Below are positions 10,307 through 42,489 of a stretch of DNA of 64,000 bases, in pieces. The notes under the pieces were generated by a model that saw nothing but the letters and a program-made list of their open reading frames with translations, was not told the origin of the DNA and did no database searches. A program made the position numbers and the translations under genes. This DNA is from Nitrospira sp. (GTDB lineage: Bacteria > Nitrospirota > Nitrospiria > Nitrospirales > Nitrospiraceae), in NCBI GenBank assembly GCA_030123605.1, contig CP126123.1:3437237-3501236 (forward strand). Direction: 5' to 3'. Numbering within the stretch: position 1 is the stretch's first letter; each line of letters begins with the position of its first letter.

Positions 10307-10317
10307 GGAGCACCGCC

Positions 10318-21772: not shown

Positions 21773-22001
21773 TCGCCGGGTCCAACTCCATGGTCAACAC
21801 CAGGGTGGGTCTATCTCGCAAACCAAAGGCTGCCGGCTGCTCACCCTCCAGATGGAGTGCAGCGGCCTCTTGCAGATGCTTGACGGTTTCATCTAGCGTA
21901 CGTCCCTGGGTAACGACCGCAATCTCCAGACACTCGGCCACATAGCCAACCTCGTCACCTGGACGAATCACCGCTTTGATGGTTTGTTGCAAATAGCTCA
22001 T
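21756..22001 (-). CDS. hicB: HicB family antitoxin (no DNA-binding C-terminal domain)
   Basis: YVAECLEIAVVTQGRTLDETVKHLQEA HicB pattern; overlaps the hicA start. Confidence 0.88.
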   Translation of the reverse strand: MSYLQQTIKAVIRPGDEVGYVAECLEIAVVTQGRTLDETVKHLQEAAALHLEGEQPAAFGLRDRPTLVLTMELDPANAQAS

Positions 22002-22529: not shown

Positions 22530-22746
22530 TTAGCCCACATTATTCATGACGGTTCGTGACGAAACCGCCAAAACGCCAGGTGAGACGGGCACGTGGAGCC
22601 GCGAGGAAGGGAGGCATACTTGATACAGTCTGTCGACCGACCGGGCGGCGAGCCTGCCCGCTTGGATGCCGGAAACTGGCATCCAAGCTTGTCGCAGCGG
22701 CGGATCGGCGGTTGCAGTAGAAGCGGTCATGAATAATGTGGGTTAG
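22530..22746. mobile_element. MITE-like element copy B (217 bp)
   Basis: TIR CCCACATTATTCATGA/TCATGAATAATGTGGG with TTAG directly repeated on both sides; extra perfect 11-bp hairpin at 22660-22688. Confidence 0.88.
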
Positions 22747-26918: not shown

Positions 26919-27488
26919 TCACCCGCCTGCGTCGAGAGGGATCTCGAATGTTTTGAAGGTCGGGTCGATGTCGCTAGGTCGATCGGCGAGCGGCGGGCAT
27001 TGGAGATAGGGCTTGAGGTCGCGCAGGAGTTCGTTCTTTTTTCTTTTGGCGATGTCGCAGGCAGGCCCGGTGCAGGAACGTTCGAAATCTGCAGCTGCTT
27101 GGGCGGCGGCCGCGGCATTTCGGCCGGACTCGAAATCGAGCCAGGCCTTGTGAGTCTGCAACGCCTGATCCAATTCCGCCAAATGCCTGTCCACCCCGCG
27201 GAAGTGGTTATCCCTCCTGCACTGATCGCGCACGCCGGAGCCGGGCGAAAAATCGCATCGCCGGTCGCGCACGTGGACTTCCTCGCGGATCAGGCGCTGG
27301 GCTTCCTGAGAGCATCGAAAATAGTCGTCGTTGTACTGAGCCTCGTGCGCCTGTCTGAACTCATCGAGCCGGCCAGGGGTAAAGGACGAGTACACCCAGG
27401 TGTCGAATAACAGCGGCTCTTCGGCCAAGCCCGGCATGGCTTCCGTCAGCACCAAAACACACATCCCTGCAAACAATGTCGTGTTCAT
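26919..27488 (-). CDS. Exported Cys-containing hypothetical protein
   Basis: Signal-peptide-like N-terminus (MNTTLFAGMCVLVLTEAMPGLA); six further Cys; no family recognised. Confidence 0.55.
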   Translation of the reverse strand: MNTTLFAGMCVLVLTEAMPGLAEEPLLFDTWVYSSFTPGRLDEFRQAHEAQYNDDYFRCSQEAQRLIREEVHVRDRRCDFSPGSGVRDQCRRDNHFRGVDRHLAELDQALQTHKAWLDFESGRNAAAAAQAAADFERSCTGPACDIAKRKKNELLRDLKPYLQCPPLADRPSDIDPTFKTFEIPLDAGG

Positions 27489-27696
27489 CGTTCGGAGTAC
27501 GGACAGGATGGTGAATGCTCGTCGAGCATAATCATTGTACTTCGCGCCATGCCGAAATCAAGAGGCAGTCTCTGCACCGGACTTCCCAACCTCGGCACGG
27601 CGTCCCTTCCCTCAGCCCGGCAGTTGACACCACCCCACCCGAACAGTAGGTTGTGCCTGTTGCTCTGCCTCACGCCCCAACCAGGAGGACGCATCC

Positions 27697-28719
27697 ATGC
27701 AGACTCAGGATCAGGCCGGAGGGCCCACGCCCCAATTGTTTTTTCAAACCGCCAATGCGTACCAACGGACCCAGGCGCTGAAGGCGGCCGTCGAACTGGA
27801 TCTGTTCACTGCCATTGGGCTGGGCAAGGACACGGTAGACACGCTCGCGCAACGTTGCGGCGCAGCGGAGCGGGGCGTGCGGATATTGGCGGACTACTTG
27901 ACCATCCAGGGTTTCCTGACGAAGGAGGGGAGCCGGTACAAGCTGACGCCGGATTCCGCGCTGTTCCTCGATCGGCGGTCGCCGGCCTACATGGGGTCGG
28001 TCTTGGGATTCCTGCATGCGCCGAAGTTCACCGAATCGTTTCAGAACCTCACCGAGGCAGTGCGAAAGGGAGGCACCGTGGCAGGCGAGGCCGGCACCGT
28101 CGCTCCTGAACATCCCCTTTGGGTCGAATTTGCGACATCGATGATTCCCATGATGGCCAGACCGGCGGAAGAGATCGGCATCTTCGTGCGGCAGACCCAA
28201 CCGGACGTCAAAAAGGTCCTGGACATCGCAGCGGGACATGGGCTCTTCGGGGTTGAAATCGCCAAACGCTGCCCGCAAGCCGAGATCGTCGCGCTCGATT
28301 GGCCCAACGTCTTGACCGTCGCGCAGGGGCTGGCGCAGCAGGCCGGCGTTCAGGCTCGCTATCGGACGATCGCCGGGGACGCGTTTCAGCAGGATTTCGG
28401 CACAGGCTACGATCTGGTGCTGCTCACCAATTTTCTCCATCACTTTTCCACGGCCACTTGCGAGACGCTGCTCCGTAAGATCCATCGCGCGCTCACCCCA
28501 GGCGGCCGGGTCATCACTCTGGAGTTTATTCCCAACGACGACCGTGTCACGCCACCCCCGGTGGCTGAATTCTGCCTGATCATGCTCGCCACGACACCGG
28601 AAGGGGATGCCTATACGTTCAAGGAATACGAACAGATGTTTCGTGCCGCAGATTATGCCCGCACCGAGCTACACCCGGTGGCCGGTTCGATCGAGCAGGT
28701 GCTCGTGTCGTATCGGTAG
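27697..28719 (+). CDS. SAM-dependent O-methyltransferase (dimerisation domain + class I MTase)
   Basis: ALKAAVELDLF dimerisation helix; VLDIAAGHG SAM motif; AGDAF; NFLHHF; AGGAGG RBS. Confidence 0.9.
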   Translation: MQTQDQAGGPTPQLFFQTANAYQRTQALKAAVELDLFTAIGLGKDTVDTLAQRCGAAERGVRILADYLTIQGFLTKEGSRYKLTPDSALFLDRRSPAYMGSVLGFLHAPKFTESFQNLTEAVRKGGTVAGEAGTVAPEHPLWVEFATSMIPMMARPAEEIGIFVRQTQPDVKKVLDIAAGHGLFGVEIAKRCPQAEIVALDWPNVLTVAQGLAQQAGVQARYRTIAGDAFQQDFGTGYDLVLLTNFLHHFSTATCETLLRKIHRALTPGGRVITLEFIPNDDRVTPPPVAEFCLIMLATTPEGDAYTFKEYEQMFRAADYARTELHPVAGSIEQVLVSYR

Positions 28720-28764
28720 ATGGATTGAATGGCGTCTTGAGCAGGGTTTGATCGGGATCGGCAG

Positions 28765-29304
28765 ATGAGTCAGCGAGAGGACAGAATCGCAGGACCCCTT
28801 ACGAGATTTCTGACGGATGACCACCGGCGGCTCGATGGACTGCTGCAAAAGGCAACGGCCCGTGCCGGGCTTGTCGAGCAGGGAGCGTACGCTCAATTTC
28901 GCGCCGGCCTCCTTCGCCACATCGGGATGGAAGAAAAGATCCTTCTGCCTGTGGTCCAGCGGCTGCGTGGCGGAGAGCCGCTTCCCCTCGCCGCCAAGCT
29001 CCGGCTCGACCATGGGGCCCTGGCCTCGTTGCTCATGCCGACGCCGACCGCCGATATCGTGGCGACGATCCGAGATATTCTGGAGGACCACAATGCCCTG
29101 GAGGAGGGGCCGGCCGGCTTGTACGAGATCTGTGACGATCTGGCCGGCTCGGAAGCGGAACCACTCCTGGCCGATCTCCAAGCGGCACCGGAAGTCTCGG
29201 TCATGCCGCACTCCGACAGTCCCGCGGTGATGAATGCCGTGCGTCGAGCACTGGAGAGAGCCGGATATCGCTTGCGCGGCGCCGAAGACGGCGAGAGGAG
29301 ATGA
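28765..29304 (+). CDS. Hemerythrin-like domain protein
   Basis: DHRRLD, RHIGMEEKILLP, DHG, HNALEE His/Glu pattern. Confidence 0.8.
   Translation: MSQREDRIAGPLTRFLTDDHRRLDGLLQKATARAGLVEQGAYAQFRAGLLRHIGMEEKILLPVVQRLRGGEPLPLAAKLRLDHGALASLLMPTPTADIVATIRDILEDHNALEEGPAGLYEICDDLAGSEAEPLLADLQAAPEVSVMPHSDSPAVMNAVRRALERAGYRLRGAEDGERR
29255..29287 (+). repeat. 33-bp direct repeat, left copy (3' end of hemerythrin gene)
   Basis: AGAGAGCCGGATATCGCTTGCGCGGCGCCGAAG is identical to 33346-33378; weaker similarity continues ~20 bp. Confidence 0.92.
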
Positions 29305-29384
29305 GACGGAAGCAGCCGCTCCTTCCTTCAGAGCTCAGCAATCACACGTAACAATAGCCGCTCATCATTCGGTCGAGTCTCCGC

Positions 29385-29421
29385 GGTTTCATGGCGAACC
29401 TTCATGAATAATGTGCGCTAA
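29385..29421. mobile_element. Single MITE end (partial copy D)
   Basis: GAACCTTCATGAATAATGTGCG followed by CTAA; matches the TIR of copies A-C, with no partner end found. Confidence 0.6.
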
Positions 29422-29632
29422 GGCACTCGCATGTTTTTATCACCTTAGGCTAAACGCCTCTCACACTGAGTTCGTGCCGCGATACGAGCGCCACGTACCG
29501 CAGGACGAGGCGGAATCTGATTGTTCAGCCGGTTCTTCTACTTGCGGCTTCCTAAAAAAGTGACGACGTGGCCCCTTAGCGCAGCCACGAATCGTTGAAA
29601 CGTGACCTTCCCCCAGTTTCGTGGACACCTGG

Positions 29633-30496
29633 TTACGCGACTGCCGTCCTCGATTCATACTCGACCGGGGAGTGATAGCCGAGGGTCGAGTGCCGACGCG
29701 TCCGATTGTAGAACACCTCAATGTATTCGAAGATGTCCTGCTTGGCTTCGGCTCGTGTGGCATAGTGCCGATGGTACACGAGCTCGCGCTTCAGTGTCCC
29801 GAAGAAGCTCTCCACGCAGGCGTTGTCCCAGCAATTGCCTTTGCGGCTCATGCTGGCCGTGATACCGTGCGTGGTGAGCAGCTGCTGGTACGGCCCTGCG
29901 GCATACTGACTCCCGCGATCGGAGTGATGCAGGCGTCCAGCTTCGGGCAGCCGAGTGGTGAGCGCCATGCGGAGGGCCTGTTCGGTTAAATCTCCTGTCA
30001 ATCGTGGGCCCATCGCCCAGCCGATGACTGCACGCGAGTACAGATCCAGCAGCACGGCCAGATACAGCCACCCCTCCAGGGTCCAGACGTAGGTGATATC
30101 GCCTGCCCAGACCCGGTTGGGCTGCGACACCGTGAACTGGCGGTCAAGCGTGTTCGCTGCCACGGGCAAGCGGTGCGACGAGTGCGTCGTGGCCCGCCAT
30201 TTCTTCACGGTCTTGGCCCGGAGGCCATCGTGGCGCATCAGCCGGGCCACGCGATGCTCCCCAACCCGGTGGCCCTGTTTGCGGAGAGCCCGCCAGATGC
30301 TCGGACTGCCATAGGTCTGACGACTGTCCTGATGGAGCACTCGAATTGTGACGAGCAGCGTACGATTGGCGGCCGCCCGCCGACTTTCTGGACGTCCTCG
30401 CCACGCGTAATACCCCGCGGGGGAGACCGCCAGCGCTCGGCACATCAGGCGGATCGGATAGCGACGGTCGTGCTCCTGGATCGCGCGGTATCTCAT
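29633..30496 (-). CDS. IS3 transposase OrfB (DDE/rve integrase core)
   Basis: WAGDITY, HHSDRGSQY, DNACVESFF, IFEYIEVFYNRTRRHSTLGY. Confidence 0.95.
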   Translation of the reverse strand: MRYRAIQEHDRRYPIRLMCRALAVSPAGYYAWRGRPESRRAAANRTLLVTIRVLHQDSRQTYGSPSIWRALRKQGHRVGEHRVARLMRHDGLRAKTVKKWRATTHSSHRLPVAANTLDRQFTVSQPNRVWAGDITYVWTLEGWLYLAVLLDLYSRAVIGWAMGPRLTGDLTEQALRMALTTRLPEAGRLHHSDRGSQYAAGPYQQLLTTHGITASMSRKGNCWDNACVESFFGTLKRELVYHRHYATRAEAKQDIFEYIEVFYNRTRRHSTLGYHSPVEYESRTAVA

Positions 30497-30789
30497 TGGG
30501 ACTCCCTCGCGAAGAACGCCGCCGCACGTTTTAAAAAATCCCGCTCCTGCTTCAAGACGGCATTTTCACGCCGCAGCTGGGCCAGTTCCGTCTGCTCGGC
30601 CTGTAGAGATTGCCGGGGCTGTCCACGCTCCTCTGCCTGCTGCTGCTCCGCTCGCCACCGGTAGAGGAGATGATCGGCAATCCCCAGATCCCGCGCCACC
30701 TGTGTAACGGGATGCCCAGACTCCCGTACCAAACGCACCGCTTCTTCTTTGAACACCGCCGTATACGACCGTCGTGTCTTCGTGCTCAT
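30493..30789 (-). CDS. IS3 transposase OrfA (HTH)
   Basis: RRSYTAVFKEEAV...VARDLGI HTH; ERDFLKRAAAFFA end containing an in-frame T TTA AAA slippery heptamer. Confidence 0.93.
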   Translation of the reverse strand: MSTKTRRSYTAVFKEEAVRLVRESGHPVTQVARDLGIADHLLYRWRAEQQQAEERGQPRQSLQAEQTELAQLRRENAVLKQERDFLKRAAAFFARESQ

Positions 30790-31541
30790 GCTGTCCTCCG
30801 ATTTCCTCATTCTCCCACTTATGGAAGTGTCTGTGAAATCGGGGGAAGATCAACGTGAGATCATCGGCAGGTTGCAAGATTCTTGTCCTCGGTGAATTTG
30901 TCGCCATCATGAAACAGGCCGAAGTATACAGCCGCTCTAACACCAAACGACGACAGAGCAGCTCATACCGCTTGCTATAGGAGACGCCTGCATATCGTCG
31001 GAGGCTTTTCGTATCTTTGAGGGAAGCTTCGCCGCGGAACTCCGGATCAACTTGGAAATACGGTTCTTTGTTTGAGACAGGCGTGTGTGCGTTATTGCGA
31101 TCTTCCAACAGGAACAAGTACCCAAGAAAAGGAGCAGGGGACAGACCAAATCGGCTTTCTCGAAATGCAGTCCAGATATCCTTGGCACTGCCGACTGCTT
31201 CCTCCGCGCGGTTGTTTACATTGTTGCCGATCGATTTGCCGGCTTGGGACTTGAACTCCATCGCGAGGACCAAAGTGCCGTTAGATACCACTATCAAATC
31301 CCATTTTTTTGTGGCTCTGAAATAGCCGGGGAGCTCGAGCGCGGTCCTCGTACGCACATCCAATTTCTTTAAACCCGCCTCACAGAGGATGTCCGACACT
31401 AACACCTCAAGCGCACCCATTTGAGTGCCTCCTGTCACTTCGCCACGCGTGCCTGCATCGATTTTCCCAGATTGGACCTGCTTGGCTTTGTTTTTTCTCC
31501 GAGCGTCCCAATAACTTTGGACAGCGATCCGCAACCTCTTG

Positions 31542-33260
31542 TCAATGTCCAAGCGCTGCCTCCATCAGAGGCGAGTCAATCCCATACAACGTAAAAGCTA
31601 CGTGCGTTGCCTGTTGTCTGTCACGATGGCGGAAGGCGTCTCGCAGTTCCCGAGATTGTTTTTCCGAGAGACTCTTTGGCTCAGGCACTCGAATCCGGCG
31701 CAGGTACTGAGCTTGGAAACGCAGGTAGCCTCCCCGCATGCGGACCCCGTACGACTCGACAAAAAATTGAGCGACGGACGACATCAGTAATCCGCCAAGC
31801 ACTTCGAGATCCCAGTCATCCGACTGGACAACATACAGATTGTGGTGCGGGTATGTATCGCCTCGATCCAAGACCGGCTCTAGGATATTCCTGATATCCG
31901 GGATATAGAGTTTGGGTTTGTTGATGAGCGCATAGTTGACACGATCGATAGTTTTGTACCAACCGGTCGCATTCTTCTCGGCCGTATGACGTTTTCTGAG
32001 GGAAGTAGCATGGTGCTCATAATAGGCTTTCAGTTTGAGATAGTCGTTCAGATCGACAAGTCCGTCGTGGTTCCACGGATTCACAAGGTAGTGGCCTGAC
32101 CAGTCGAGTATTCCGCCTGCCACATCCTTCACAAGTGCCAGCTTGAGAAGGCGAGAAGGCTCCACAAGCTCTGCATCGGTCGTGATGTAGACGCTATCGT
32201 TCCCTGTGGCAACGCCTATGCCGACTTTGGCAGTCATCTCTAGCAATGGAAACTCTTCTTCAAGCTGCCGGAGAAGCGCCAATTGCTCGGGTGAATGACA
32301 GGGCCAAGGGTCTGCGCCTTTGAACCACGTGTTTATCACTGCTACATGGATTCCTTCCAGCGAAGTGGGCCTTGTATCAGAACCTTTCCCGAGGAGCCGC
32401 GTTGCCAGTCGTGTCGGCTGGACCTTTTCAGCTGCGGGATCTGCCCTAGCCACGACGGCAGATCTCTGTTTCATGTGTCGAATGACAGTAATTGCGGGAT
32501 AGGCATCCACTTCGTGTTCAAAAGCATTCACGTTATGCATGCTTAGGAGGACTTCAACGCTATACGCCGAGGTAATAAGTTGCCGCAGCTCGGCCCCGTA
32601 GTGATTACGCATCCAACGATCGGCGCAGATGAAGGTGCAAACCCCCCCGGTTTTAAGTTGGCGAAGTGCGGCTTCAAAAAAAGCCACATAAAGATCAGCT
32701 CGGCCGCGCATTGTCGGATATGCTTTGCGGTAAACCGAGACGGTCTCTTCCGGAATATCTTCCAGCCGCACATACGGAGGATTTCCGATTATGAAATCCG
32801 CCGCTCTGCAGTCGGTCTCGAAAAGGTAATCCCTCGATACGACCCATGTTTGGGCCAATCGTTCTGCGAGGGTTGGACTCACCCCTCGTTCTTCGAGGGT
32901 TCTCTGAGCAAGGGCCCTGGTACGGACAGCGCTGTTGTCATCCAACTCGTATGCGATGAGGGATCGTTCACACTCAGATAACGGCCGACCGAGCTTCCGG
33001 CAGGAAGCCAGGAGACGTTCGATCATAGGCCCGAGAAATGCGCCGTCACCTGCGGCCGGTTCAACCGCCAGGGCATCCACCAGGTTCTGCTCATGGGAAT
33101 AGCCGCTCAAATCGAGAAGAAGTTCCACGACCCAACGTTTTGTATAAACGGCCCCCTTCTGCTCGATTCTTTCTGCAGGAGATGGGAGGTTGCAGGGTGC
33201 CAGGATTTGAAGCTGAATGCCTTGTGTCGCAATCGATGGGGTGATCTGGCCTTTTGTCAC
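31542..33260 (-). CDS. N6-adenine DNA methyltransferase, gamma class (M.PaeR7I/M.XhoI/Eco57I-like)
   Basis: GAVYTKRWVV, EPAAGDGAFL (motif I), IGNPPYVR (motif IV), PHHNLY, MRGGYLRFQAQYLRRIR; overlaps the REase start. Confidence 0.93.
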   Translation of the reverse strand: MTKGQITPSIATQGIQLQILAPCNLPSPAERIEQKGAVYTKRWVVELLLDLSGYSHEQNLVDALAVEPAAGDGAFLGPMIERLLASCRKLGRPLSECERSLIAYELDDNSAVRTRALAQRTLEERGVSPTLAERLAQTWVVSRDYLFETDCRAADFIIGNPPYVRLEDIPEETVSVYRKAYPTMRGRADLYVAFFEAALRQLKTGGVCTFICADRWMRNHYGAELRQLITSAYSVEVLLSMHNVNAFEHEVDAYPAITVIRHMKQRSAVVARADPAAEKVQPTRLATRLLGKGSDTRPTSLEGIHVAVINTWFKGADPWPCHSPEQLALLRQLEEEFPLLEMTAKVGIGVATGNDSVYITTDAELVEPSRLLKLALVKDVAGGILDWSGHYLVNPWNHDGLVDLNDYLKLKAYYEHHATSLRKRHTAEKNATGWYKTIDRVNYALINKPKLYIPDIRNILEPVLDRGDTYPHHNLYVVQSDDWDLEVLGGLLMSSVAQFFVESYGVRMRGGYLRFQAQYLRRIRVPEPKSLSEKQSRELRDAFRHRDRQQATHVAFTLYGIDSPLMEAALGH

Positions 33261-33345
33261 TGTGGCCTCGAATCCTTTGATAACCTTTCTGAAAAGTCGC
33301 GGCTGATACTAGCTTGTCCGGTGCCTTCGTTCAAGACGGATGGCT

Positions 33346-33378
33346 AGAGAGCCGGATATCGCTTGCGCGGCGCCGAAG
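33346..33378 (+). repeat. 33-bp direct repeat, right copy (displaced hemerythrin 3' end)
   Basis: Identical to 29255-29287. Confidence 0.92.
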
Positions 33379-33639
33379 GTGCGAGACGAGATGAGGCGGG
33401 GGCAGAGGGGCAGACAGGAGAATGAAGGATTTCTTGGACGTGCGCAATTTCCGTCGCGCCTCGTCTGGACCTTGTGCCTTCTCGCGAGTCAGTCAGGTGA
33501 TGTCGATCCGTCGGTGTATCCGGACAATCCGGTTTCGATAGGTATCTTCTCGGATACAGTCACGTATCCCGTCGGATACAGGTTCTATCCCTCCCAAAAC
33601 AGTTCAGCGTGAGGAACCACCGATGAACGCATCGCGTTC

Positions 33640-33876
33640 ATGCGCACCAAGGCAATGCCCACGCCGCACATACAATGGCCGGATAAAAATATCTCTAACG
33701 GAACGAGCCTTGCATCTTCACCCTCATGGATTCGCATCGGGCTTATTCCTGAAGCGGCTACGACACCGCATCGCGTCCGGCGCGATTCGGAATCGGTCGA
33801 TCTCGTCGCCGAGCAAAACAAGATCCGCGATTCTGCAGGCGCTCGTGTCGAGCGCCTCAACCCCATGGAGGAGTGA
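33640..33876 (+). CDS. Small hypothetical protein upstream of serine protease
   Basis: GAGG RBS nearby; stop 3 nt before the protease ATG; no recognisable motif. Confidence 0.3.
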   Translation: MRTKAMPTPHIQWPDKNISNGTSLASSPSWIRIGLIPEAATTPHRVRRDSESVDLVAEQNKIRDSAGARVERLNPMEE

Positions 33877-33879
33877 CCC

Positions 33880-34977
33880 ATGCCTAGTACGGACAGACCG
33901 TTATTGGTCGAAGAGTGGTCGAAACACCTTAAATCTCAAAAGGCTCAGCGTGCAGCCAAAAGTTTTGAGGTGGTGCTTGCCAGCATTGAGGTGGATGCGG
34001 CGCTGGCCCGCTCGGTGAAGATGCGCCGCACGAAAGGGCGCGTGGAACTGGTGGGCAAAGGCAATACCTTTGGGACCCGCCTCTTTCCGCCCGCGGTGAA
34101 GTCCGTCAGTCTGGCCCGTACCAAACGGGTCGAGTTCCAGGAACCGATCGGACTGCGCCCCACGCATCTCGACTTTCGAGCGCTTCCGAATGAACTTCCT
34201 AAAGCCCTTCGTCAGCTCAACCGCATCCGCCGGTACGATTTGGAACTGGGGGAAGACATGGGGTTGCCAAGCAATGTCTTTTCGCCGGATGACCGTTACA
34301 CGTTTGCCGATACGGCGTTTCCTTGGAGCACCTGTGGGCGCGTCGATACGGCCGCCGGCTACGGTTCCGGCGTCATGATCGGACCACGCCATCTGTTGAC
34401 GGCCAGCCATGTCGTGAACTGGGGGCCGAACAATACCGCCGGTTGGTTGAAGTTCACCCCGCTGTTCTTTGACGGCAACGAACCGTTCGGCCATACGTTC
34501 GCCAACATGATTTACTCGTGGAACAAGGCGGATGGCTCAGACGGCATCAATGCCGATGAGTGCGCATTCGACTACGTGGTGTGCGTGTTGGACATGCGCA
34601 TGGGTGATGTCACGGGCTGGATGGGGTCCCGGGGCTATTCCACCGCCTGGGACGGTGGAAACTACTGGGGGCATGTCGGCTATCCCAGCGACCTTGCCAA
34701 TGGCTCGCGTCCGGCCTTCGTCGGCTATCAGGCGATGGATTCCACGTTCACCCGCACGATCGGCGGGCGCGATTCGTTCGGGATCAAGCACCGGATCGAT
34801 GTCATTCCCGGCCAGTCCGGCGGGCCGTACTTTGGCTGGTGGGACAATGAACCTTGGCCGCGTGTCGTCTCCACGCAGAGCGCCCATCAGTGGGGTGGAA
34901 GCACTGGTCCGAATACCAGCGGCGGCGGCAATCCGCTTCCAGAGCTGATCAACCATGCCAGGACCGTTTCGCCATAG
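33880..34977 (+). CDS. Trypsin-like serine protease (S1B/glutamyl-endopeptidase-like)
   Basis: GSGVMIGPRHLLTASHV (His), FDY (Asp), GQSGGP (Ser); GGAGGAG RBS. Confidence 0.88.
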   Translation: MPSTDRPLLVEEWSKHLKSQKAQRAAKSFEVVLASIEVDAALARSVKMRRTKGRVELVGKGNTFGTRLFPPAVKSVSLARTKRVEFQEPIGLRPTHLDFRALPNELPKALRQLNRIRRYDLELGEDMGLPSNVFSPDDRYTFADTAFPWSTCGRVDTAAGYGSGVMIGPRHLLTASHVVNWGPNNTAGWLKFTPLFFDGNEPFGHTFANMIYSWNKADGSDGINADECAFDYVVCVLDMRMGDVTGWMGSRGYSTAWDGGNYWGHVGYPSDLANGSRPAFVGYQAMDSTFTRTIGGRDSFGIKHRIDVIPGQSGGPYFGWWDNEPWPRVVSTQSAHQWGGSTGPNTSGGGNPLPELINHARTVSP

Positions 34978-35249
34978 GAGGGTGTTCAAGGTTTCACCGC
35001 ATGGAGCGAAGGGCTGATTTCCGGCATGGACCATACTCACTCTCGTCCGTATCCTACTGAGCCCTTCCTTGTTGGTCTGATATCTGGCTCTCGATAAATA
35101 CGTGTATTTGCCTGAGTGTTCAGGTTGACAGTAATAGTCGGTAGACATAGGATCTCGCCCACCGGATCTTGTGGCAGCGCGCATGGCTGTCGTCAATGGA
35201 GGCCTGTACGTACCCTTGGCCATGAATCCTGATCGTGCAGGAGGGGGCA

Positions 35250-38200
35250 ATGTATTGGAATAGGTTGAACCCGCAACATGATTCCGAGGTCTCGCTTCTT
35301 GACCGAGAGAACCCTGACTTCCAGAGCATAATCAAACATCTCGATGAGCAGTACAGGCTCGGGCTTGAGGCTGAATTGCGGAAATACGCACTGGGCCATG
35401 AGAAGGCACCTATTCGCTCCATAAAAAGGAAGTCGTTAAGGTTCTATAAACAATTTTCGGACCGCACGCCGCCCGATGGACAAAGCCTTCACGACAGCAA
35501 CTCTTCCGAGTCGAAAGGTGCCGATCAAGCTAAACCGCCGGAGTTGTTTGAGGTCGAGCTCGATCTCAGCGCGATCGACGAACGATATGGCGACAAGTCC
35601 CTGACGAACTACGAATGGACGCGGGTGTATCTGGTCAGGGTTGGTAAAGAGAAGATTAAGGACAAGGCCGACGACGAGTCCGAACAGTCTACGGACGGTT
35701 ATGAGTGGTATCTGCTAAATGGAGAGAGCGGTGTTCTGCATGCTTTGAACGCAAAATTCGGTGGAATCAATATTGATAACTCTTCATGCGCAAGTGAGTA
35801 TCTCGATTTCTTCTGTTCGTTCCTGTGCTCGGAAGAGGGAGTGTTCGCTCTCATTCAACAGGAAGCGGATCTGACGGAACTTGAAGATCACGGTGAGCGA
35901 TTCAAAGAGGAACTTTATAAACGTCGTGGACACGCAATATTTGCTCAAAAGCAGACGTACATCCGGCAGCCATGGGGCGAAGTAGAGGCGGAGCTCAAAG
36001 AAAAGCTCCAAAAACTGAATGGGCCGCAGCCCAATTTGTCAGGCCAAGGTGCTAGCGGTGAGGGTGGGGATTTAGCTGCGACGGATTCTCAAACTGAGAA
36101 GAAGAAGGAATGGTACGGGTTGGTCTTGTACGACAAGGAGGTTCGGGAAGCTCGTTTTGAACTGACTGAATCCGGGGTCGTCACGATGGTGGGGGATCAG
36201 AAGGTCCAGTCTGGTCTGCCAGTTAGGCGCCACACGACAGTGCGCCACAAAAGATCCGGTATCATTCGGTTTGCCAAGAGCGCTTCCAGGAAGCTCATCT
36301 CCGCGGCTGAGTTTAAGGAGTACGTATTGAAGGCAACGGGAGTTGCGAGGTTTTACAATGTGTTGATAGAAGAAAATTTGAGATTTGATCCGACCGATAG
36401 AGTAGGTGCACTTGAATGCTTGGATGTGCACTTTTTAGGTGAGGTGACTTTCGACCACTGCCATGTGTCGGCGGTGTTTCGATTCGAAGATTGCAAGTTC
36501 CTCGGTGGTTTCCGTGCTCCCGGCACAACCTTCACTTCCCAAGTCTCCTTCGAGAAGTCTGAGACTTTTTTTCTTTCTGAGATGTGGCTGGCGCAGCCAC
36601 CTACGCAGAGGCAAGGGGGAGACTATCCGGTAGCACTGAACTTGAACTATGCCAGGGTCAATGGAAGCCTCGGTTTGGAACGACTCACTGTCCATGGGTC
36701 GGTGAGTTGTCGCCATCTCACCGTCAAATCGGATGCCAATTTTAGAGGGCTCCAAGTGGTTCCACTTGTGGATGGAAACCAGGAAGATCCGCAAGGAGGG
36801 AAAGAGAAGTCCAACAAGCCCAAACTACCCTTCAAAGCTGCCCCTGGCAATGGTCCGGTGTTGTTGGATCTTCAGCGCAGTTCGTTCGCTGGATCCCTCA
36901 ATCTCGGGATCTCCGTGGAGAAGGAGGTGGGGCTGAAGAAGGGCAAGGTCTTGCGGCGAACCCGCGTGACCGTGTGTGGTGACTGCCGGTTCGATACTAT
37001 GTCCGTTGGTAAGTCTCTCATCATCGAGGGGCTGGCGGTTGTGAAGCCGAACAACGAGGTTGACCTTAAGGACTATCGATATGGGGCTTTGGATTGGCCT
37101 CTTTCGCTTTCCATGTCCAACGTGATGGTCAAGGGAAACATTCAATCATGGGAGTACGATTCGTGGGATGTAACCGGTCAAACGATCCTCCCTCCTCTCG
37201 TCGTCGATGGAACCATTGATCTGAAGTGGTCCAAGATAGGCGGTTACGTCGATCTCAGGATGTCGCAGGTGAGAGAAAATCTCGATTGCATCGGTGTATG
37301 TGCTGCCTGGCTTACATTGCAGCCTTCTCGACTCAATGACGTTTCATCGAACGATGACGAGCGCCGGAAGGCAGGCGAAAGAGATTGGGTGCAGTATTCG
37401 GTATTGGATCCAGTCTCCTTATCCCCACCAGTCGGGAATGCACCATCTAAATGGATGGAAGCCTTCACATGGCGGATGTCATCCATTGGGGGCGATCTAA
37501 AATTGGGTAATGCGATCATTCCTGGCGGAGTGACGTTGACGGGTACGACGGTTAAGGGAACGGTTGACGTACGTCTTGGCGCTCAACTAGGCCAGATCAA
37601 GGCCATGCCGGCGTTTGGCATCGATACTGAATTTGAAACAAAAAAACGTACGGTGGTCAAGCAAAGCGCCTTCCTAGGCGGCCTTTCAATCCGGGATAGC
37701 ACCATCGCAGGACCTGTCTATCTGTGGGGTGCTCGAGTCGGAAAAGAAAATGCGGGCAATCAAAATGCAGCGCCTAGACCGGTGATTGATATCGCCACCT
37801 CGAACCTCAAGGGCGGATTGTATCTGCATGTGCGGTCCAGTTGGGAAGGGCAGCAGATTGTCTTGGACTCATTCGCCGATGGTAAGCATTGGCGTGATGA
37901 CGAGAAGGCCAGCACCGATTGGGTGGGCCATCAGGGACACCAAGTGTCCACTAATAAGGATAATTTTGAGCATGGAGCCGACGCCTATTTCTGGAAAACC
38001 GTCTCAGACATATTTCACACGACCGTGAATGGCAATGTGGACGTATTGGCTTCCGACATCGGAACTGACTTGGATTTGACGAACACAAAGGTGATGGGAC
38101 GAGTCCGCCTGAACGATTCCCATGTTAAATGCGATGTCAGAGCGGTGGCCTGCTTGCAGGAGTTGGATGTCAAAGAGAAAGCACCTCCCCAGTCTGAGCG

Positions 38201-39296
38201 AGAAGCCGCGCTGCAGACTGGGTTAAAAACGACGTGTAAGAGTTTCGAATTCCAGTCTCTGCGCTGTGATGGGGACCTGATGCTGGCAGGCCTTGTTACC
38301 GAGAAGGATGTCGATGGCAGGAATGCCGTGGTGCAGGGGCATGTGGAATTTGTTTCCGAGGGTAGGGAGGCGACTATAAAAGGAACTCTCACTCTCTGCG
38401 GGTTTGAGGTTGGGCTCCTGCGAGTGAGCGGCAAGAGTTTCGAGGAGAGGGGCACGATTGATCTGGCGCGAGCCACGATTTCGACCCTTAACATCAGCAC
38501 TCGCCTGTCTATAAAAATTAATCTGCAGAGTATTAAGGTTAATCACTGGGAAATCATGAAATCGGAACAGGAGAAGCAAGAAGATGCAATTCTAAGTCTC
38601 CTTGACGCCACAAAGGAGCATTATGATTCGTGGCCCTACAAGAGCATTGAGAACTGGTTGATTGCCAAGGGAGAAGATGATGCTGCGAAGGCAGTCTTCA
38701 GGCGCAAGAACCAGGCTGAATGGGAAAAGAAAGATAAGTACATTCACAATTCATTAACAAATGGGAAAAGCCTCTCTCTGATTAGCTCCTGGTGTTGGCA
38801 TCATGTAAAAGAGTGGATGTGGGGTAGATTTATGGGGTTTGGCACGATTCTTTGGAAAGCAGTAGTGCTTTGGGTAGCACTCTCTCTTTTCCTGGCATGG
38901 GTACTGAGCAATCCTAATAACGTTCAGCCTACCTTTGCTGCGGTCAATGTTGGGCTTGGGAAGATAAAGTTTGATGATATTAAGATGACAGAGATCGGTG
39001 CCAAAATCCAAGACACCAGAAATGAGTTACAGAAGCAATTTCCCAAGGAACGCGAATGGGGGTTTCGGCATGCGTTTTGGCTGGCCCTTGACATCACCGT
39101 GCCGTTAGTGCCCTTCAACCTTCATGATGAATGGGAACCAAGAGACTCAACCGAGAATACAGTCTTTCCTTTTTGCTTGCGCAGCGAGATGCCCATAGCG
39201 CCAAAAATGCTGGCGAACATCTTTGTTGTAGCCTCCTGGTTTATATGGTCCTTATTTGCCACTGCCCTTGCAGGTGCAATGTGGACAAGAAAGTAA
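35250..39296 (+). CDS. Large low-GC protein: unknown N-terminal domain, beta-helix/pentapeptide-like repeats, C-terminal membrane domain
   Basis: 1348-aa uninterrupted ORF; A/T-richer than flanks; repeats such as HFLGEVTFDHCHVSAVFRFEDCKFLGGFRAPGTTF; C-terminal hydrophobic helices with a LDITVPLVP...EW motif. Confidence 0.8.
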   Translation: MYWNRLNPQHDSEVSLLDRENPDFQSIIKHLDEQYRLGLEAELRKYALGHEKAPIRSIKRKSLRFYKQFSDRTPPDGQSLHDSNSSESKGADQAKPPELFEVELDLSAIDERYGDKSLTNYEWTRVYLVRVGKEKIKDKADDESEQSTDGYEWYLLNGESGVLHALNAKFGGINIDNSSCASEYLDFFCSFLCSEEGVFALIQQEADLTELEDHGERFKEELYKRRGHAIFAQKQTYIRQPWGEVEAELKEKLQKLNGPQPNLSGQGASGEGGDLAATDSQTEKKKEWYGLVLYDKEVREARFELTESGVVTMVGDQKVQSGLPVRRHTTVRHKRSGIIRFAKSASRKLISAAEFKEYVLKATGVARFYNVLIEENLRFDPTDRVGALECLDVHFLGEVTFDHCHVSAVFRFEDCKFLGGFRAPGTTFTSQVSFEKSETFFLSEMWLAQPPTQRQGGDYPVALNLNYARVNGSLGLERLTVHGSVSCRHLTVKSDANFRGLQVVPLVDGNQEDPQGGKEKSNKPKLPFKAAPGNGPVLLDLQRSSFAGSLNLGISVEKEVGLKKGKVLRRTRVTVCGDCRFDTMSVGKSLIIEGLAVVKPNNEVDLKDYRYGALDWPLSLSMSNVMVKGNIQSWEYDSWDVTGQTILPPLVVDGTIDLKWSKIGGYVDLRMSQVRENLDCIGVCAAWLTLQPSRLNDVSSNDDERRKAGERDWVQYSVLDPVSLSPPVGNAPSKWMEAFTWRMSSIGGDLKLGNAIIPGGVTLTGTTVKGTVDVRLGAQLGQIKAMPAFGIDTEFETKKRTVVKQSAFLGGLSIRDSTIAGPVYLWGARVGKENAGNQNAAPRPVIDIATSNLKGGLYLHVRSSWEGQQIVLDSFADGKHWRDDEKASTDWVGHQGHQVSTNKDNFEHGADAYFWKTVSDIFHTTVNGNVDVLASDIGTDLDLTNTKVMGRVRLNDSHVKCDVRAVACLQELDVKEKAPPQSEREAALQTGLKTTCKSFEFQSLRCDGDLMLAGLVTEKDVDGRNAVVQGHVEFVSEGREATIKGTLTLCGFEVGLLRVSGKSFEERGTIDLARATISTLNISTRLSIKINLQSIKVNHWEIMKSEQEKQEDAILSLLDATKEHYDSWPYKSIENWLIAKGEDDAAKAVFRRKNQAEWEKKDKYIHNSLTNGKSLSLISSWCWHHVKEWMWGRFMGFGTILWKAVVLWVALSLFLAWVLSNPNNVQPTFAAVNVGLGKIKFDDIKMTEIGAKIQDTRNELQKQFPKEREWGFRHAFWLALDITVPLVPFNLHDEWEPRDSTENTVFPFCLRSEMPIAPKMLANIFVVASWFIWSLFATALAGAMWTRK

Positions 39297-39314
39297 CCTC
39301 CGGGGGGCTTGTTC

Positions 39315-39541
39315 TTACTGCGTGCGCTCCAGTTCCCTCTCCATCTTCCGATGAGTGATGCCGGCATCGAGGAATAGGTCGCCGATTGGGCGGAAGCCGG
39401 CCCGTTCGTAAAACCCGATCGTGTGGGTCTGGGCCGAGAGGGTGACGCGCGCGAGGCCTCGTTGCGCGGCCAGTTCCAGTAATACGCCGAGCAGGGCGCG
39501 GCCGATACCGCGACCACGCCAGTCCTTGAGCACCGCCATCC
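39315..39541 (-). pseudogene. Duplicated 3' half of the GNAT gene at 40649-41116
   Basis: 39341-39541 aligns with 40693-40893 (201 bp, 8 mismatches counted); sequence upstream of GRMAVLK is unrelated. Confidence 0.88.
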
Positions 39542-39840
39542 GACCGTCGGAGGTGTCTCCTTTGTGAAACGTCAGATTGAGCGAGGTGGCTCCCTTCTTT
39601 CCTTCTGAGGGCGCGTTCATAGAGCAGGAGGACGACCAGGTTGCCTGATTCACTCTTTCGTGCGCGTTCTGCGAGCACAAAGACCACACCGGCCACCTCG
39701 CTTCTCTTCTCCGAGCCATACGCCGTCAGTTATAAGCTCCCATGGGTCTCCTCGGCTCCATTCGTCCTCGAGACGTGATTGACCGCCCAACGTCACACTG
39801 CTATCATTTTGGTAGCATTTCGTTCGAAGGAGGAAGAAGC

Positions 39841-40074
39841 ATGGCGCAAGTTCTTGTTCGGCAGCTCGACAACAAAGTGGTCGATCGGTTAAAGAAGCGG
39901 GCGAAGGAGCATGGTCGTTCTCTGCAATCGGAGGTGAAGACGATTCTGGAAGAAGCGGTGCCGGACTATGAGGCGGCTTGGAAGCGGATCGAGGGGATTC
40001 GCAAACGATTGGGAAAGTCTGGTCGGAAGTTCAGTGACAGTGCGGATCTCATCCGTGAGGATCGCGACCGGTGA
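39841..40074 (+). CDS. FitA/Arc-like ribbon-helix-helix antitoxin
   Basis: MAQVLVRQLD...LKKRAKEHGRSLQSEVKTIL; GGAGG RBS; GTGA overlap with the toxin. Confidence 0.9.
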   Translation: MAQVLVRQLDNKVVDRLKKRAKEHGRSLQSEVKTILEEAVPDYEAAWKRIEGIRKRLGKSGRKFSDSADLIREDRDR

Positions 40075-40502
40075 GTGGCTATATTGTGGATGCCAGTGTG
40101 GCGATCAAGTGGTTCATTCCTGAAATCCACTCTGAGGCCGCGAACCTGGTGAGGAGGGCACGCCATCGACTCCATGTCCCAGCCTTTCTGGCGCTGGAGC
40201 TCGGCAATGTCATCGCCAAGAAGATTCGAAGAGCGGAACTCACTCGGGAGGACGGGAAGGCAATTCTGAAGGAGCTGCAACATCTTCCGCTCCAGCGACA
40301 TGCCGATGATCGACTTTTTCCCGCCGCCTACGAACTCGCGGTGGATACTCAGCAAAGTCTGTATGATTGTCTTTATCTTGCCTTAGCTGAAGTGGTCGAT
40401 GGTCGAATGATTACCGCCGACCGTAAATTTTACAGTGCGCTAACCGGGGGATCATATGGCCACCGGTTGCTGTGGGTTGAGGATCTGGCACGGCTGACGT
40501 AA
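40071..40502 (+). CDS. vapC: VapC/PIN domain toxin
   Basis: IVDASVAIKW, LELGNV, SLYDCLYLALA, MITADRK PIN acidic residues. Confidence 0.92.
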   Translation: MSGYIVDASVAIKWFIPEIHSEAANLVRRARHRLHVPAFLALELGNVIAKKIRRAELTREDGKAILKELQHLPLQRHADDRLFPAAYELAVDTQQSLYDCLYLALAEVVDGRMITADRKFYSALTGGSYGHRLLWVEDLARLT

Positions 40503-40648: not shown

Positions 40649-41116
40649 TCATTGCTTCTCCGGACCGGCGGGCGGCAACCCCAGCTCCTTCACCATCTTC
40701 CGGTGCGGAATGCCGGCATCGAGGAATAGGTCGCCGATTGGGCGGAAGCCGGCCCGTTCGTAAAACCCGATCGCGTGGGTCTGGGCCGAGAGGGTGACGC
40801 GCGCGAGGTCTCGTTGCGCGGCCAGTTCCAGTAATGCGCTGAGCAGGGCGCGGCCGATACCGCGACCACGCCAGTCCTTGAGCACCGCCATCCTGCCGAT
40901 CGTTCCGTTCACCTGCATGCGCGCCGTGCCGATCGCCTCTCCATGGTCATCCCACGCGAGCACATGGGCACAGGCCGGATCGAGACCGTCCCACTCCAAG
41001 TCTTTCGGCACTCCCTGTTCGACGATGAATACCGTTTCGCGGATCGCCCTTATGGCTCGCTCGGCCTCGTCCCATTGTACAAGTTCCACCCGCAGATCTC
41101 TGAATTGTCGGGCCAT
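40649..41116 (-). CDS. GNAT acetyltransferase (ElaA/YjcF-like)
   Basis: IRETVFIVEQGVP..LEWD, IGRMAVLKDWRGRGIG, LSAQTHAIGFYE, DAGIPH. Confidence 0.92.
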   Translation of the reverse strand: MARQFRDLRVELVQWDEAERAIRAIRETVFIVEQGVPKDLEWDGLDPACAHVLAWDDHGEAIGTARMQVNGTIGRMAVLKDWRGRGIGRALLSALLELAAQRDLARVTLSAQTHAIGFYERAGFRPIGDLFLDAGIPHRKMVKELGLPPAGPEKQ

Positions 41117-42481: not shown

Positions 42482-42489
42482 TGGGAAAC

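What the first reader, a model, noticed from the sequence alone, without database searches (positions are those of the whole stretch)
29255..33400. 4.1-kb R-M islet bounded by a duplicated 3' end of the hemerythrin gene
Seen: an identical 33-bp repeat (plus ~20 bp degenerate) at 29255 and 33346 encoding RAGYRLRGAE; between them lie a MITE end, the IS3 and the AT-richer R-M pair; no integrase. Known: integrative elements that target coding genes restore the gene with their own copy of the 3' end. Inference: an attL/attR-like remnant or a satellite islet mobilised in trans, at an unusual non-tRNA site.
Basis: partly seen in the sequence, partly recalled or inferred. Interest (0 to 1): 0.65.

Follow-up and report, generated by a model that had tools for sequence, protein, structure and literature searches.

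The report
Restriction-modification cassette flanked by target duplication
A small restriction-modification gene pair sits just after a Nitrospira hemerythrin gene between two copies of that gene's last ~80 bases; relatives keep the unoccupied site with one copy, so this is a known, recombinase-free kind of insertion, here with signs that the cassette re-enters the same site in related genomes.

Summary
The repeat is real: 33 identical bases at 29255 and 33346, found nowhere else in the 4.3-Mb genome. It is the best-preserved part of an ~80-bp duplication (29252-29332; right copy 33341-~33405). The duplication covers the last 13 hemerythrin codons, the stop codon and ~30 bp beyond.

Between the copies lies a 2.76-kb unit: a MITE-end fragment, an XhoI-family endonuclease gene, an N6-adenine methylase gene and its promoter-like motif. 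A later IS3 insertion (3-bp duplication ACG) cuts the endonuclease gene 21 codons before its stop.

Metagenome contigs settle the structure. Two lineages have the unoccupied site with one target copy. A third has the same cassette, the same junctions and an 83-bp repeat. The closest genome keeps only the first ~30 bp of the cassette and carries a different R-M system.

There is no integrase within 130 kb, no tRNA, no Ku. Both copies in each genome carry that genome's own variants and look younger than the lineage split. Cassette non-coding DNA is more conserved than flanking non-coding DNA.

Best reading: an "R-M insertion with long target duplication" (Nobusato 2000; Furuta 2010), probably maintained and re-inserted by general homologous recombination through the repeat. 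It is a new member of a known kind. A vapBC pair 6 kb away has the same architecture.

The parts
28765..29304 (+). Hemerythrin HHE-domain gene (179 aa), left intact by the insertion
   Evidence: Pfam PF01814, E 5.8e-7. Orthologues in 20 of 41 related genomes.
29252..29332 (+). Left copy of the duplicated target (T_L, ~81 bp): last 13 codons, stop codon and ~28 bp downstream. The exact 33-bp block is 29255-29287.
   Evidence: Aligns with the single copy in the unoccupied-site contigs L091 (72/84) and L092 (72/84).
29333..33340 (.). Inserted unit U: 4008 bp, or 2755 bp without the IS3 and its duplicated ACG
   Evidence: Absent from L091 and L092. Present with the same junctions in L095 and L096. 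Its first ~30 bp survive in G001.
29377..29422 (+). Right-end fragment of a multi-copy MITE, carried inside U
   Evidence: Eight other copies in the genome at 82-87%. Aligned with full-length copies. Also present in L096.
29538..29602 (-). 3' piece of the XhoI-family restriction endonuclease gene (last 20 sense codons plus the stop: FQRFVAALRGHVVTFLGSRK*)
   Evidence: Joining it to 30856-31552 gives a 253-aa ORF matching the intact orthologues in G020, G007, G014, G006, G018 and L096.
29603..30852 (-). IS3-family element, 1250 bp (orfA 30493-30810, orfB 29633-30496), with 3-bp target duplication ACG at 29600-29602 and 30853-30855
   Evidence: Pfam rve and HTH_Tnp_1. Eight copies at 99.9-100% in the genome. 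IS-free junction in G020, G042 and L096, and in a 99.8%-identical metagenome contig L082.
30856..31552 (-). 5' piece of the XhoI-family restriction endonuclease gene
   Evidence: Pfam PF04555, E 5.6e-69. PADLOC REase_II, E 6.9e-68.
31542..33260 (-). Type II N6-adenine DNA methyltransferase (572 aa), intact
   Evidence: Pfam Eco57I, TaqI_C and N6_Mtase. PADLOC MTase_II, E 1.6e-189.
33306..33334 (-). Promoter-like motif TTGAAC-17 nt-TAGTAT upstream of the methylase gene. The right repeat copy starts 6 bp beyond it.
   Evidence: Conserved in all 8 genomes aligned. It matches only 8 of 12 consensus positions and falls below the scan tool's threshold, so promoter function is inferred.
33341..33405 (+). 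Right, displaced copy of the target (T_R). The exact block is 33346-33378. A 2-bp insertion (CT) lies at 33344-33345. The distal end is truncated.
   Evidence: 58/67 identical to T_L. In L096 the copy is full length (84 bp) and is followed by repeat element E. In the window about 400 bp were lost between short ATGAG..GCAG repeats.
33880..34977 (+). Trypsin-like protease gene, the native right neighbour of the hemerythrin gene
   Evidence: hem-E-protease-GNAT order in unoccupied contig L091. hem-R-M-T_R-E-protease-GNAT order in L096.
39329..39541 (-). Displaced copy of the 3' half of the GNAT gene (second instance of the architecture)
   Evidence: 202/213 identical to 40681-40893. Seven of the 11 mismatches fall in the 32 nt nearest the stop codon (Fisher p = 2e-4).
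39742..40502 (+). FitA/VapB-like antitoxin gene and PIN (VapC) toxin gene, lying between the two GNAT copies
   Evidence: Pfam PF22513, E 1.3e-14, and PF01850, E 1e-13. No ORF is called between the protease or hemerythrin gene and GNAT in L091, L092 or L096, and those contigs, G001 and G020 show no DNA match to 39742-40502.
40649..41116 (-). Intact GNAT acetyltransferase gene, the right border of the variable slot
   Evidence: Pfam Acetyltransf_10, Acetyltransf_1 and Acetyltransf_7.

Best explanation
A 2.76-kb type II restriction-modification unit was inserted at the 3' end of the hemerythrin gene. The unit comprises an XhoI-family endonuclease gene, an N6-adenine methylase gene, the methylase promoter and ~200 bp of non-coding DNA that includes a MITE-end fragment. 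The insertion duplicated ~80 bp of target, so the gene stays intact and a displaced copy of its end lies just upstream of the methylase promoter.

No site-specific recombinase is involved. This is the integrase-free 'insertion with long target duplication' described for R-M systems.

Shown: the insertion, its junctions, the unoccupied site, and three later events. These are the IS3 insertion into the endonuclease gene, a ~400-bp deletion that truncated the right copy, and replacement of the cassette by a different R-M system in the closest genome.

Inferred: once flanked by the repeat, the unit behaves as a cassette that general (RecA-type) homologous recombination can loop out as a circle carrying one repeat copy. 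The same recombination can re-insert it by a single crossover into the same gene end of a related genome, and gene conversion can keep the two copies alike. On this reading, the 33 identical bases followed by 6 differences in 28 bases in this genome mark a crossover or conversion boundary at 29287/29288.

How the first duplication arose remains unknown.
For: Insertion, junctions and unoccupied site:
- Contig L091 (hemerythrin 92% identical) reads OMT-hem-E-protease-GNAT. Contig L092 (85%) reads OMT-hem-E-GNAT. Each has one target copy and no R-M, and homology to the window resumes at 33402.
- Contigs L095 and L096 (83%) read OMT-hem-R-M-[hem 3' copy]-E-protease-GNAT. They have the same left junction (..CCTTCRGN|GCYCAGCAAT) and right junction (..TTCAAGACGGR|TGGAGAGAG), and 84-bp copies that are 73/84 identical.
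- G001 keeps the left junction and ~30 bp of the unit, then carries a 5mC methylase, Vsr and a Z1/helicase-domain protein instead.

No recombinase:
- The nearest tyrosine recombinase is 131 kb away. There is no tRNA in the window, and the neighbouring ORFs scanned have no recombinase domain.

The copies are host-derived and young:
- Both window copies share a window-specific T (GCTTGC) and a 3-bp deletion. Both L096 copies share four L096-specific variants.
- Within-genome copy identity is 87% in both genomes. The two right copies are only 71% alike, and the two left copies 81%.

The unit's history is decoupled from its flanks:
- Window versus L096: unit non-coding DNA is 89% identical and unit coding DNA 94%. 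Flanking non-coding DNA is 38-76% identical and flanking coding DNA 84-92%.
- Window versus G020 shows the reverse: unit 76.5%, flanks 82.6%.

Differences between the copies are not uniform: 0 in 33 bases, then 6 in 28 (p = 0.007).

The architecture recurs with another target:
- vapBC lies between 213-bp GNAT repeats in the window.
- In G042 the same R-M cassette lies between 100-bp copies of the GNAT stop region (E 4e-12).

The cassette is a long-term resident of the clade. It occurs in 11 of 39 genomes of the genus, and CTCGAG is the most avoided of the 64 six-base palindromes in this genome (606 observed, 1580 expected).

Published class and criteria: PMC2853133.
Against: - No excised circle, and no unoccupied site carrying the R-M-linked haplotype, was seen.
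- All occupied alleles have GGCGCC in both copies, while both unoccupied alleles have GGTGCY. A simple single-crossover insertion into an unoccupied-haplotype recipient would leave one copy of each type. Gene conversion, or recipients that already carried C, must therefore be invoked.
- The higher conservation of the unit could partly reflect selection. The left non-coding stretch argues otherwise, but it is only 208 bp.
- 33 bp is near the lower limit for efficient RecA-dependent exchange. That limit is general knowledge and was not tested here.
- The origin of the first duplication is unexplained. With no Ku, fill-in joining at a staggered break is unlikely.
Confidence: 0.72

Rival explanations
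1. A single ancient insertion followed by purely vertical descent. The cassette never moved again. The two copies stay alike in each genome only through intrachromosomal gene conversion, and the cassette's higher similarity between lineages is due to purifying selection.
For: The junctions are identical in the window, L096 and G001, and probably G020. CTCGAG avoidance indicates long residence. The rank order of methylase identities (L096, then G042, then G020) follows that of the hemerythrin identities.
Against: Non-coding DNA inside the unit is 89% identical between the window and L096, against 38-76% for flanking non-coding DNA. Against G020 the unit is more diverged than the flanks. The unoccupied contig L091 is as close to the window (92%) as G001 is, yet it carries the haplotype of the distant unoccupied contig L092. 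Alleles of this site have therefore been exchanged between lineages in any case.
Confidence: 0.2
2. attL and attR of an integrative islet or satellite that is moved in trans by a site-specific recombinase encoded elsewhere.
For: The same junctions occur in diverged lineages, the unit's history is decoupled from its flanks, and the gene is left intact.
Against: - No tyrosine recombinase lies within 130 kb, and there is no tRNA.
- The repeat is ~80 bp, and host-lineage variants are spread over both copies rather than forming a short identical core with distinct arms.
- The same cassette lies between GNAT-end repeats in G042, and has no repeats at all in G004, G006, G007, G014, G018 and G020.
- vapBC shows the same architecture at a different target.
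Confidence: 0.05
3. The R-M cassette is the resident. The right-hand block, starting with the hemerythrin fragment and carrying the protease, the 1353-aa protein and vapBC, was added next to it by illegitimate joining of DNA from another strain.
For: G020 and G042 have the methylase promoter directly followed by GNAT, and they share 23 bp after window position 33342 that the window lacks. Identity of the window to G001 and G020 drops in the 3' half of GNAT.
Against: Refuted by the metagenome contigs. The protease is the native neighbour of the hemerythrin gene in the unoccupied contig L091. L096 has hem-R-M-copy-E-protease with the same junctions. The similarity I suspected between the G020/G042 spacers and window 40503-40652 is not above shuffled controls.
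Confidence: 0.02

Closest known systems
R-M gene insertion with long target duplication (Nobusato et al. 2000, Gene 259:99; Furuta, Abe & Kobayashi 2010, NAR 38:2428, PMC2853133)
   Same: An R plus M unit under 20 kb with no mobility gene of its own, flanked by a direct repeat longer than 30 bp that is single-copy at the unoccupied site of a related genome. The repeat spans a gene's stop codon, as the authors note for many of their cases. Their Haemophilus cases have 46-bp repeats overlapping gene 3' ends.
   Different: - The host is Nitrospira, which is not in their list.
- Several diverged lineages are available, covering unoccupied, occupied, truncated and replaced states. The copies can therefore be shown to be younger than the lineage split, and the unit's history to be decoupled from its flanks.
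- A toxin-antitoxin pair shows the same architecture nearby.
- The paper states there is no experimental evidence for release and re-invasion. Here there is only comparative evidence.
Integrase-borne genomic islands that carry a copy of the target gene's 3' end (tRNA- or tmRNA-targeting islands and phages)
   Same: The gene stays intact, and a displaced or duplicated 3' end bounds the island.
   Different: No integrase and no tRNA. The repeat carries host-lineage variants in both copies. The same cassette uses another gene's end in G042.
Allelic substitution of R-M systems at one chromosomal locus (E. coli hsd / immigration control region, Sibley & Raleigh 2004; Xanthomonas locus in PMC2853133)
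   Same: The slot between the convergent hemerythrin and GNAT genes holds different cargo in different lineages:
- XhoI-type R-M (window, G020, G042, L096)
- 5mC methylase, Vsr and Z1 protein (G001)
- nothing (L092)
- protease only (L091)
   Different: Here one of the alleles is bounded by a target duplication, which plain allelic substitution does not produce.
XhoI/PaeR7I-type type II R-M systems (CTCGAG)
   Same: The endonuclease matches Pfam XhoI (E 5.6e-69). The methylase is an N6-adenine enzyme with a TaqI_C-type recognition domain. CTCGAG is the most avoided palindrome in the genome.
   Different: Specificity was not measured. The endonuclease in this strain has lost its last 20 residues to the IS3.

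Membership tests
R-M insertion with long target duplication (criteria of Furuta et al. 2010) | Both an R gene and an M gene lie inside the inserted sequence | tested here: met
   PF04555 endonuclease and PF07669/PF12950 methylase lie between the repeats.
R-M insertion with long target duplication (criteria of Furuta et al. 2010) | Insert shorter than 20 kb | tested here: met
   4008 bp, or 2755 bp without the secondary IS3.
R-M insertion with long target duplication (criteria of Furuta et al. 2010) | Target duplication longer than 30 bp | tested here: met
   33 bp exact. The full repeat is about 81 and 65 bp in the window, and 84 bp in L096.
R-M insertion with long target duplication (criteria of Furuta et al. 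2010) | A related genome has the unoccupied site, where both repeats align to one copy and both flanks are collinear | tested here: met
   L091 and L092 have one copy. The left flank (OMT-hem) and the right flank (protease upstream from 33402, then GNAT) are collinear.
R-M insertion with long target duplication (criteria of Furuta et al. 2010) | No linked mobility gene, and the repeat is not a high-copy element | tested here: met
   The repeat occurs only twice in the genome. The only transposase belongs to an IS3 with its own 3-bp duplication inside the R gene, and that IS3 is absent from L096, G020, G042 and L082.
Integrase-mediated integrative islet (attL/attR) | A site-specific recombinase gene in or next to the element | tested here: not met
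   PF00589 search of the whole genome: nearest hit 131 kb away. The neighbouring ORFs scanned have no recombinase domain. Serine recombinases were not searched genome-wide.
Integrase-mediated integrative islet (attL/attR) | A short identical core flanked by element-specific and host-specific arms, with one fixed target sequence | tested here: not met
   Host-lineage variants occur along both copies. The same cassette has GNAT-end repeats in G042 and no repeats in six other genomes.
IS, composite transposon or MITE-mobilised cargo | Terminal inverted repeats at both ends of the unit, with a short target-site duplication | tested here: not met
   Only one truncated MITE end lies inside the unit, and there is no partner at the other end. 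The IS3 is internal, with its own ACG duplication.
XhoI-family type II restriction-modification system | Endonuclease of the XhoI family paired with a methyltransferase, protecting and cutting CTCGAG | tested here: inconclusive
   Family membership by profile is met. CTCGAG avoidance (observed/expected ratio 0.38, the lowest of 64 palindromes) fits that specificity. Neither cutting nor methylation was measured.

The most novel reading that the evidence does not exclude
The duplicated gene end works as a portable, recombinase-free 'att'. RecA-type recombination between the ~80-bp repeats releases the R-M unit as a circle carrying one repeat copy. A single homologous crossover then re-inserts it at the same gene end in related Nitrospira, regenerating the duplication from recipient sequence. 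Addiction modules in general use this route: vapBC between 213-bp GNAT repeats here, and the R-M cassette between GNAT-end repeats in G042. This would be the first comparative support for the 'release and re-invasion' step of the R-M life cycle, a step that Kobayashi's group proposed and for which it reported no evidence.
Probability: 0.35. Interest if true: 0.6.

Novelty: new member of a known kind. Interest (0 to 1): 0.42.

Why it matters
R-M and toxin-antitoxin modules are small selfish units that move between genomes without obvious machinery. The 'long target duplication' class has been catalogued since 2000, but no mechanism has been established for it.

This locus offers an unusually complete natural series in one clade:
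- the unoccupied site, with and without the protease gene;
- the occupied site in two diverged lineages with identical junctions;
- a truncated repeat;
- a cassette replaced by another R-M system;
- an endonuclease knocked out by an IS, alongside an IS-free near-identical strain.

The series makes two questions testable. The first is whether the repeats serve as homology handles for excision and re-insertion. The second is whether the same route serves toxin-antitoxin pairs.

For annotators, it explains orphan gene-end fragments next to defence genes.

Tried and rejected
1. Nested-insertion model. The reasons were that G020 and G042 have methylase-GNAT adjacency, and that the left copy is collinear with G001. 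The metagenome contigs refuted this.

2. G020/G042 spacer. I looked for its continuation at window 40503-40652. The similarity is not above shuffled controls.

3. Flanking repeats elsewhere. I searched for direct repeats around the cassette in G020, G004, G006, G018, G007, G014 and G013 and found none.

4. Exact-pattern scans. Scans of metagenome contigs and genome contigs with the repeat core returned nothing. The tools note that records of the window's own genome, or of one very near it, may be left out.

6. Exact-protein look-ups. The hemerythrin, OMT, methylase, protease and a 50-aa ORF gave contigs that break at the 33-bp repeat and at the IS3. That fits the same structure in three samples, but says nothing about variants. 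The look-up of the intact GNAT protein found nothing on record. One contig (L082) passes through the left copy unbroken and lacks the IS3. Coverage in that sample is too low to say whether the right copy is absent.

7. Rfam search over 27000-42000 returned no family.

8. Ku is absent, which disfavours capture of the unit by end-joining. ComEC is present, but the control genomes show this is uninformative.

9. Gene order. In G004, G006 and G018 the order is R-M-OMT...hem, against OMT-hem-R-M here. It looked like a circular permutation, but synteny across the genus is too scrambled to conclude anything.

Full report
OBSERVATION

The window holds an exact 33-bp direct repeat at 29255-29287 and 33346-33378. 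It occurs only twice in the 4.3-Mb genome, and about 1e-10 such pairs are expected by chance in the window. In the hemerythrin frame both copies read RAGYRLRGAE. A degenerate extension follows, with 20 of 25 bases matching plus one indel.

ANATOMY OF THE INTERVAL

From left to right the interval contains:
- An O-methyltransferase gene (27697-28719) and a hemerythrin HHE-domain gene (28765-29304).
- About 45-60 bp of the right end of a multi-copy MITE, at 29377-29422.
- An XhoI-family restriction endonuclease gene on the minus strand, split into 29538-29602 and 30856-31552.
- The IS3-family element that splits it, at 29603-30852. It has a 3-bp target duplication (ACG) and eight near-identical copies in the genome. 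The IS replaces the last 20 residues of the enzyme (FQRFVAALRGHVVTFLGSRK) with read-through into the IS.
- An intact 572-aa N6-adenine methyltransferase gene at 31542-33260.
- A TTGAAC-17-TAGTAT motif at 33306-33334, conserved upstream of the methylase gene in all eight genomes aligned. It is below the scan tool's threshold, so I treat promoter function as inferred.
- The right repeat copy, which starts 6 bp beyond that motif.

The R-M genes have 49-57% GC, against 60-66% in the flanks. There is no tRNA in the window. The nearest tyrosine recombinase gene is 131 kb away, and the neighbouring ORFs I scanned encode no recombinase.

SPECIES-LEVEL RELATIVES

The genus is Nitrospira, according to the source names and the earlier notes.

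- G001, the closest genome (about 92% nucleotide identity through the hemerythrin gene), lacks this R-M and has one copy of the repeat. In its place it carries a 5mC methylase, Vsr and a Z1/helicase-domain protein, which is another R-M-like system.
- G020 and the fragmentary G042 have the cassette in the same slot between the convergent hemerythrin and GNAT genes. They have no IS3 and no second hemerythrin-end copy.
- The cassette, from promoter motif to endonuclease stop codon, also occurs in other contexts in G004, G006, G018, G007, G014, G013, G041 and G043. None of the seven loci I tested (G020, G004, G006, G018, G007, G014, G013) has flanking repeats.

On this evidence I first favoured a model in which the cassette was resident and the right-hand block had been added. 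That model turned out to be wrong.

DECISIVE RELATIVES

A search for hemerythrin homologues, followed by look-ups of their contigs, gave three intermediate lineages. The percentages are hemerythrin protein identity to the window.

- Contig L091 (92%) reads OMT-hem-E-protease-GNAT.
- Contig L092 (85%) reads OMT-hem-E-GNAT.
- Contigs L095 and L096 (83%) read OMT-hem-R(intact, 253 aa)-M-[second hem 3' copy]-E-protease-GNAT.

L091 and L092 have neither the R-M nor a second copy. E is a short repeat family that is also present at window 18902-19075, 20775-21037 and 39585-39706.

The alignment shows the following.

1. The duplicated target runs from TGGAGAGAG to CCTTCRG. That is window 29252-29332, and it is 84 bp in L096.
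2. The left junction (..CCTTCRGN|GCYCAGCAAT) and the right junction (..TTCAAGACGGR|TGGAGAGAG) are the same in the window and L096.
3. G001 keeps the left junction and about 30 bp of the unit. It therefore descends from an occupied allele.
4. In L091 the homology to the window's right side resumes at 33402. The protease is therefore the native neighbour of the hemerythrin gene.
5. The window's right copy has lost its distal ~20 bp and the ~400 bp of E, through a deletion between short ATGAG..GCAG repeats.

The inserted unit is 29333-33340. That is 2755 bp without the IS3, and it includes the MITE fragment.

AGE AND EXCHANGE

- Within each genome the two copies are 87% identical: 58/67 in the window and 73/84 in L096. 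The two right copies are only 71% alike, and the two left copies 81%.
- Both window copies share a window-specific T and a 3-bp deletion. Both L096 copies share four L096-specific variants. The copies are therefore effectively younger than the split of two lineages that share the same junctions.
- Between the window and L096, non-coding DNA inside the unit is 89% identical (186/208 and 71/80) and unit coding DNA 94%. Flanking non-coding DNA is 38-76% identical and flanking coding DNA 84-92%.
- Against G020 the sign reverses: unit 76.5%, flanks 82.6%. The unit's history is decoupled from its flanks.
- In the window the differences between the copies are not uniform: none in 33 bases, then 6 in 28 (p = 0.007).
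- All occupied alleles read GGCGCC in both copies. Both unoccupied alleles read GGTGCY.

MECHANISM

Shown:
- An insertion with an ~80-bp target duplication that leaves the gene intact.
- Three later events: the IS3 insertion, a deletion, and allelic replacement in G001.

Inferred:
- General homologous recombination acts on the repeats. It does so either as gene conversion or as loop-out of a circle carrying one copy, followed by single-crossover re-insertion into an unoccupied site in a relative.
- Re-insertion of this kind would regenerate the duplication largely from recipient sequence. That would explain identical junctions, host-like copies, and a unit younger than its flanks.
- The boundary at 29287/29288 would then be a crossover or conversion end.

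Unexplained:
- How the first duplication arose. Ku is absent, so end-joining at a staggered break is unlikely.

The long residence of a CTCGAG-type system in this lineage is supported by CTCGAG being the most avoided six-base palindrome (606 observed, 1580 expected). Published work holds that chromosomal R-M systems resist loss by allelic replacement, because loss kills the cell (PMC3874152). That would favour additive structures of the kind seen here.

RECURRENCE

- Six kilobases away, a FitA/VapB-VapC pair (39742-40502) lies between the intact GNAT gene (40649-41116) and a displaced copy of its 3' half. The copy at 39329-39541 matches 40681-40893 at 202 of 213 bases, and its mismatches are concentrated near the stop codon.
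- The relatives have a single GNAT gene and show no sign of vapBC: no ORF is called in that position in L091, L092 or L096, and none of the relatives' loci gives a DNA match to 39742-40502.
- In G042 the same R-M cassette lies between two 100-bp, 74%-identical copies of the GNAT stop region (E 4e-12).

The architecture is therefore not tied to one target sequence. That argues against a site-specific enzyme.

COMPARISON WITH KNOWN SYSTEMS

The structure meets every criterion that Furuta, Abe and Kobayashi used for 'R-M insertion with long target duplication':
- R and M both lie inside the insert.
- The insert is under 20 kb.
- The repeat is over 30 bp.
- A related genome has the unoccupied site with one copy.
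- The unit has no mobility gene of its own.

Those authors note that such repeats often span a stop codon. They state that release and re-invasion lack experimental evidence (PMC2853133).

The structure does not meet the defining features of an integrase-borne islet or of a transposon. I file it as a new member of a known kind.

LIMITS

- The metagenome contigs are single assemblies.
- The homologous-recombination cycle is inferred from comparative patterns in two occupied lineages only.

Noticed in passing
window 29538-31552; locus L082: The IS3 cuts the endonuclease gene 21 codons before its end (20 residues plus the stop) while the methylase gene stays intact. A 99.8%-identical metagenome contig (L082, run SRR24111743) has the IS-free junction, so strains with an intact endonuclease gene exist.
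   Followed up: yes
whole genome (G000): CTCGAG is the most under-represented of all 64 six-base palindromes (606 observed, 1580 expected; ratio 0.38). GTCGAC (0.49) and GAGCTC (0.58) come next. This fits long exposure to an XhoI-type enzyme.
   Followed up: partly
window 39329-41116: A vapBC (FitA-like antitoxin plus PIN toxin) pair lies between an intact GNAT gene and a 213-bp displaced copy of its 3' half (95% identical). Both GNAT 3' halves are only ~75% identical to G001, whereas the 5' half is 85-96%, so a recombination breakpoint lies near 40860-40893.
   Followed up: partly
window 18902-19075, 20775-21037, 39585-39706; L091 9064-9443; L092 6572-6839; L096 4469-4899; L029 10713-10807: A low-copy repeat family ('E') sits at the border of the hemerythrin/GNAT slot in every lineage examined. 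In the window it is missing from that border and lies inverted next to the displaced GNAT fragment. Its nature is unknown. At 20850-20926 it overlaps the 3' end of ORF 20830-21192, which has no Pfam match.
   Followed up: partly
L029 (G001) 6444-10361: In the closest genome the same slot holds a different R-M-like set: a 5mC DNA methylase, a Vsr mismatch endonuclease, a 650-aa Z1/helicase-domain protein and a 152-aa protein of unknown function.
   Followed up: partly
L079/L080 (G042): The same R-M cassette is flanked by two 100-bp copies (74% identical) of the GNAT stop-codon region. In its first ~17 bases the displaced copy is closer to G001's sequence than to G042's own GNAT copy.
   Followed up: partly
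window 35235-39296: The AT-rich 1353-aa pentapeptide-repeat protein gene lies between the protease and GNAT genes only in this strain and in identical metagenome contigs (L083). It is absent from L091 and L096, so it is a separate, later insertion.
   Followed up: partly
L053, L054, L055 (G004, G006, G018): In another clade the same R-M cassette sits directly upstream of the O-methyltransferase gene. The hemerythrin gene is 14-23 kb away, so the order (R-M, OMT ... hem) is a circular permutation of the window's (OMT, hem, R-M). In G004 the endonuclease gene is truncated.
   Followed up: partly
L003/L030 (G020) near 3670: The G020 hemerythrin orthologue has an in-frame TAG inside the region that corresponds to the 33-bp repeat (RAGY*LRGVE), which shortens the protein by about 11 residues.
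   Followed up: no
whole genome; window 21270-22640 and 29377-42684: A MITE family with terminal repeat GCCCACATTATTCATGA has well over 15 partial or complete copies in the genome. Assembled contigs of relatives often break at it.
   Followed up: partly
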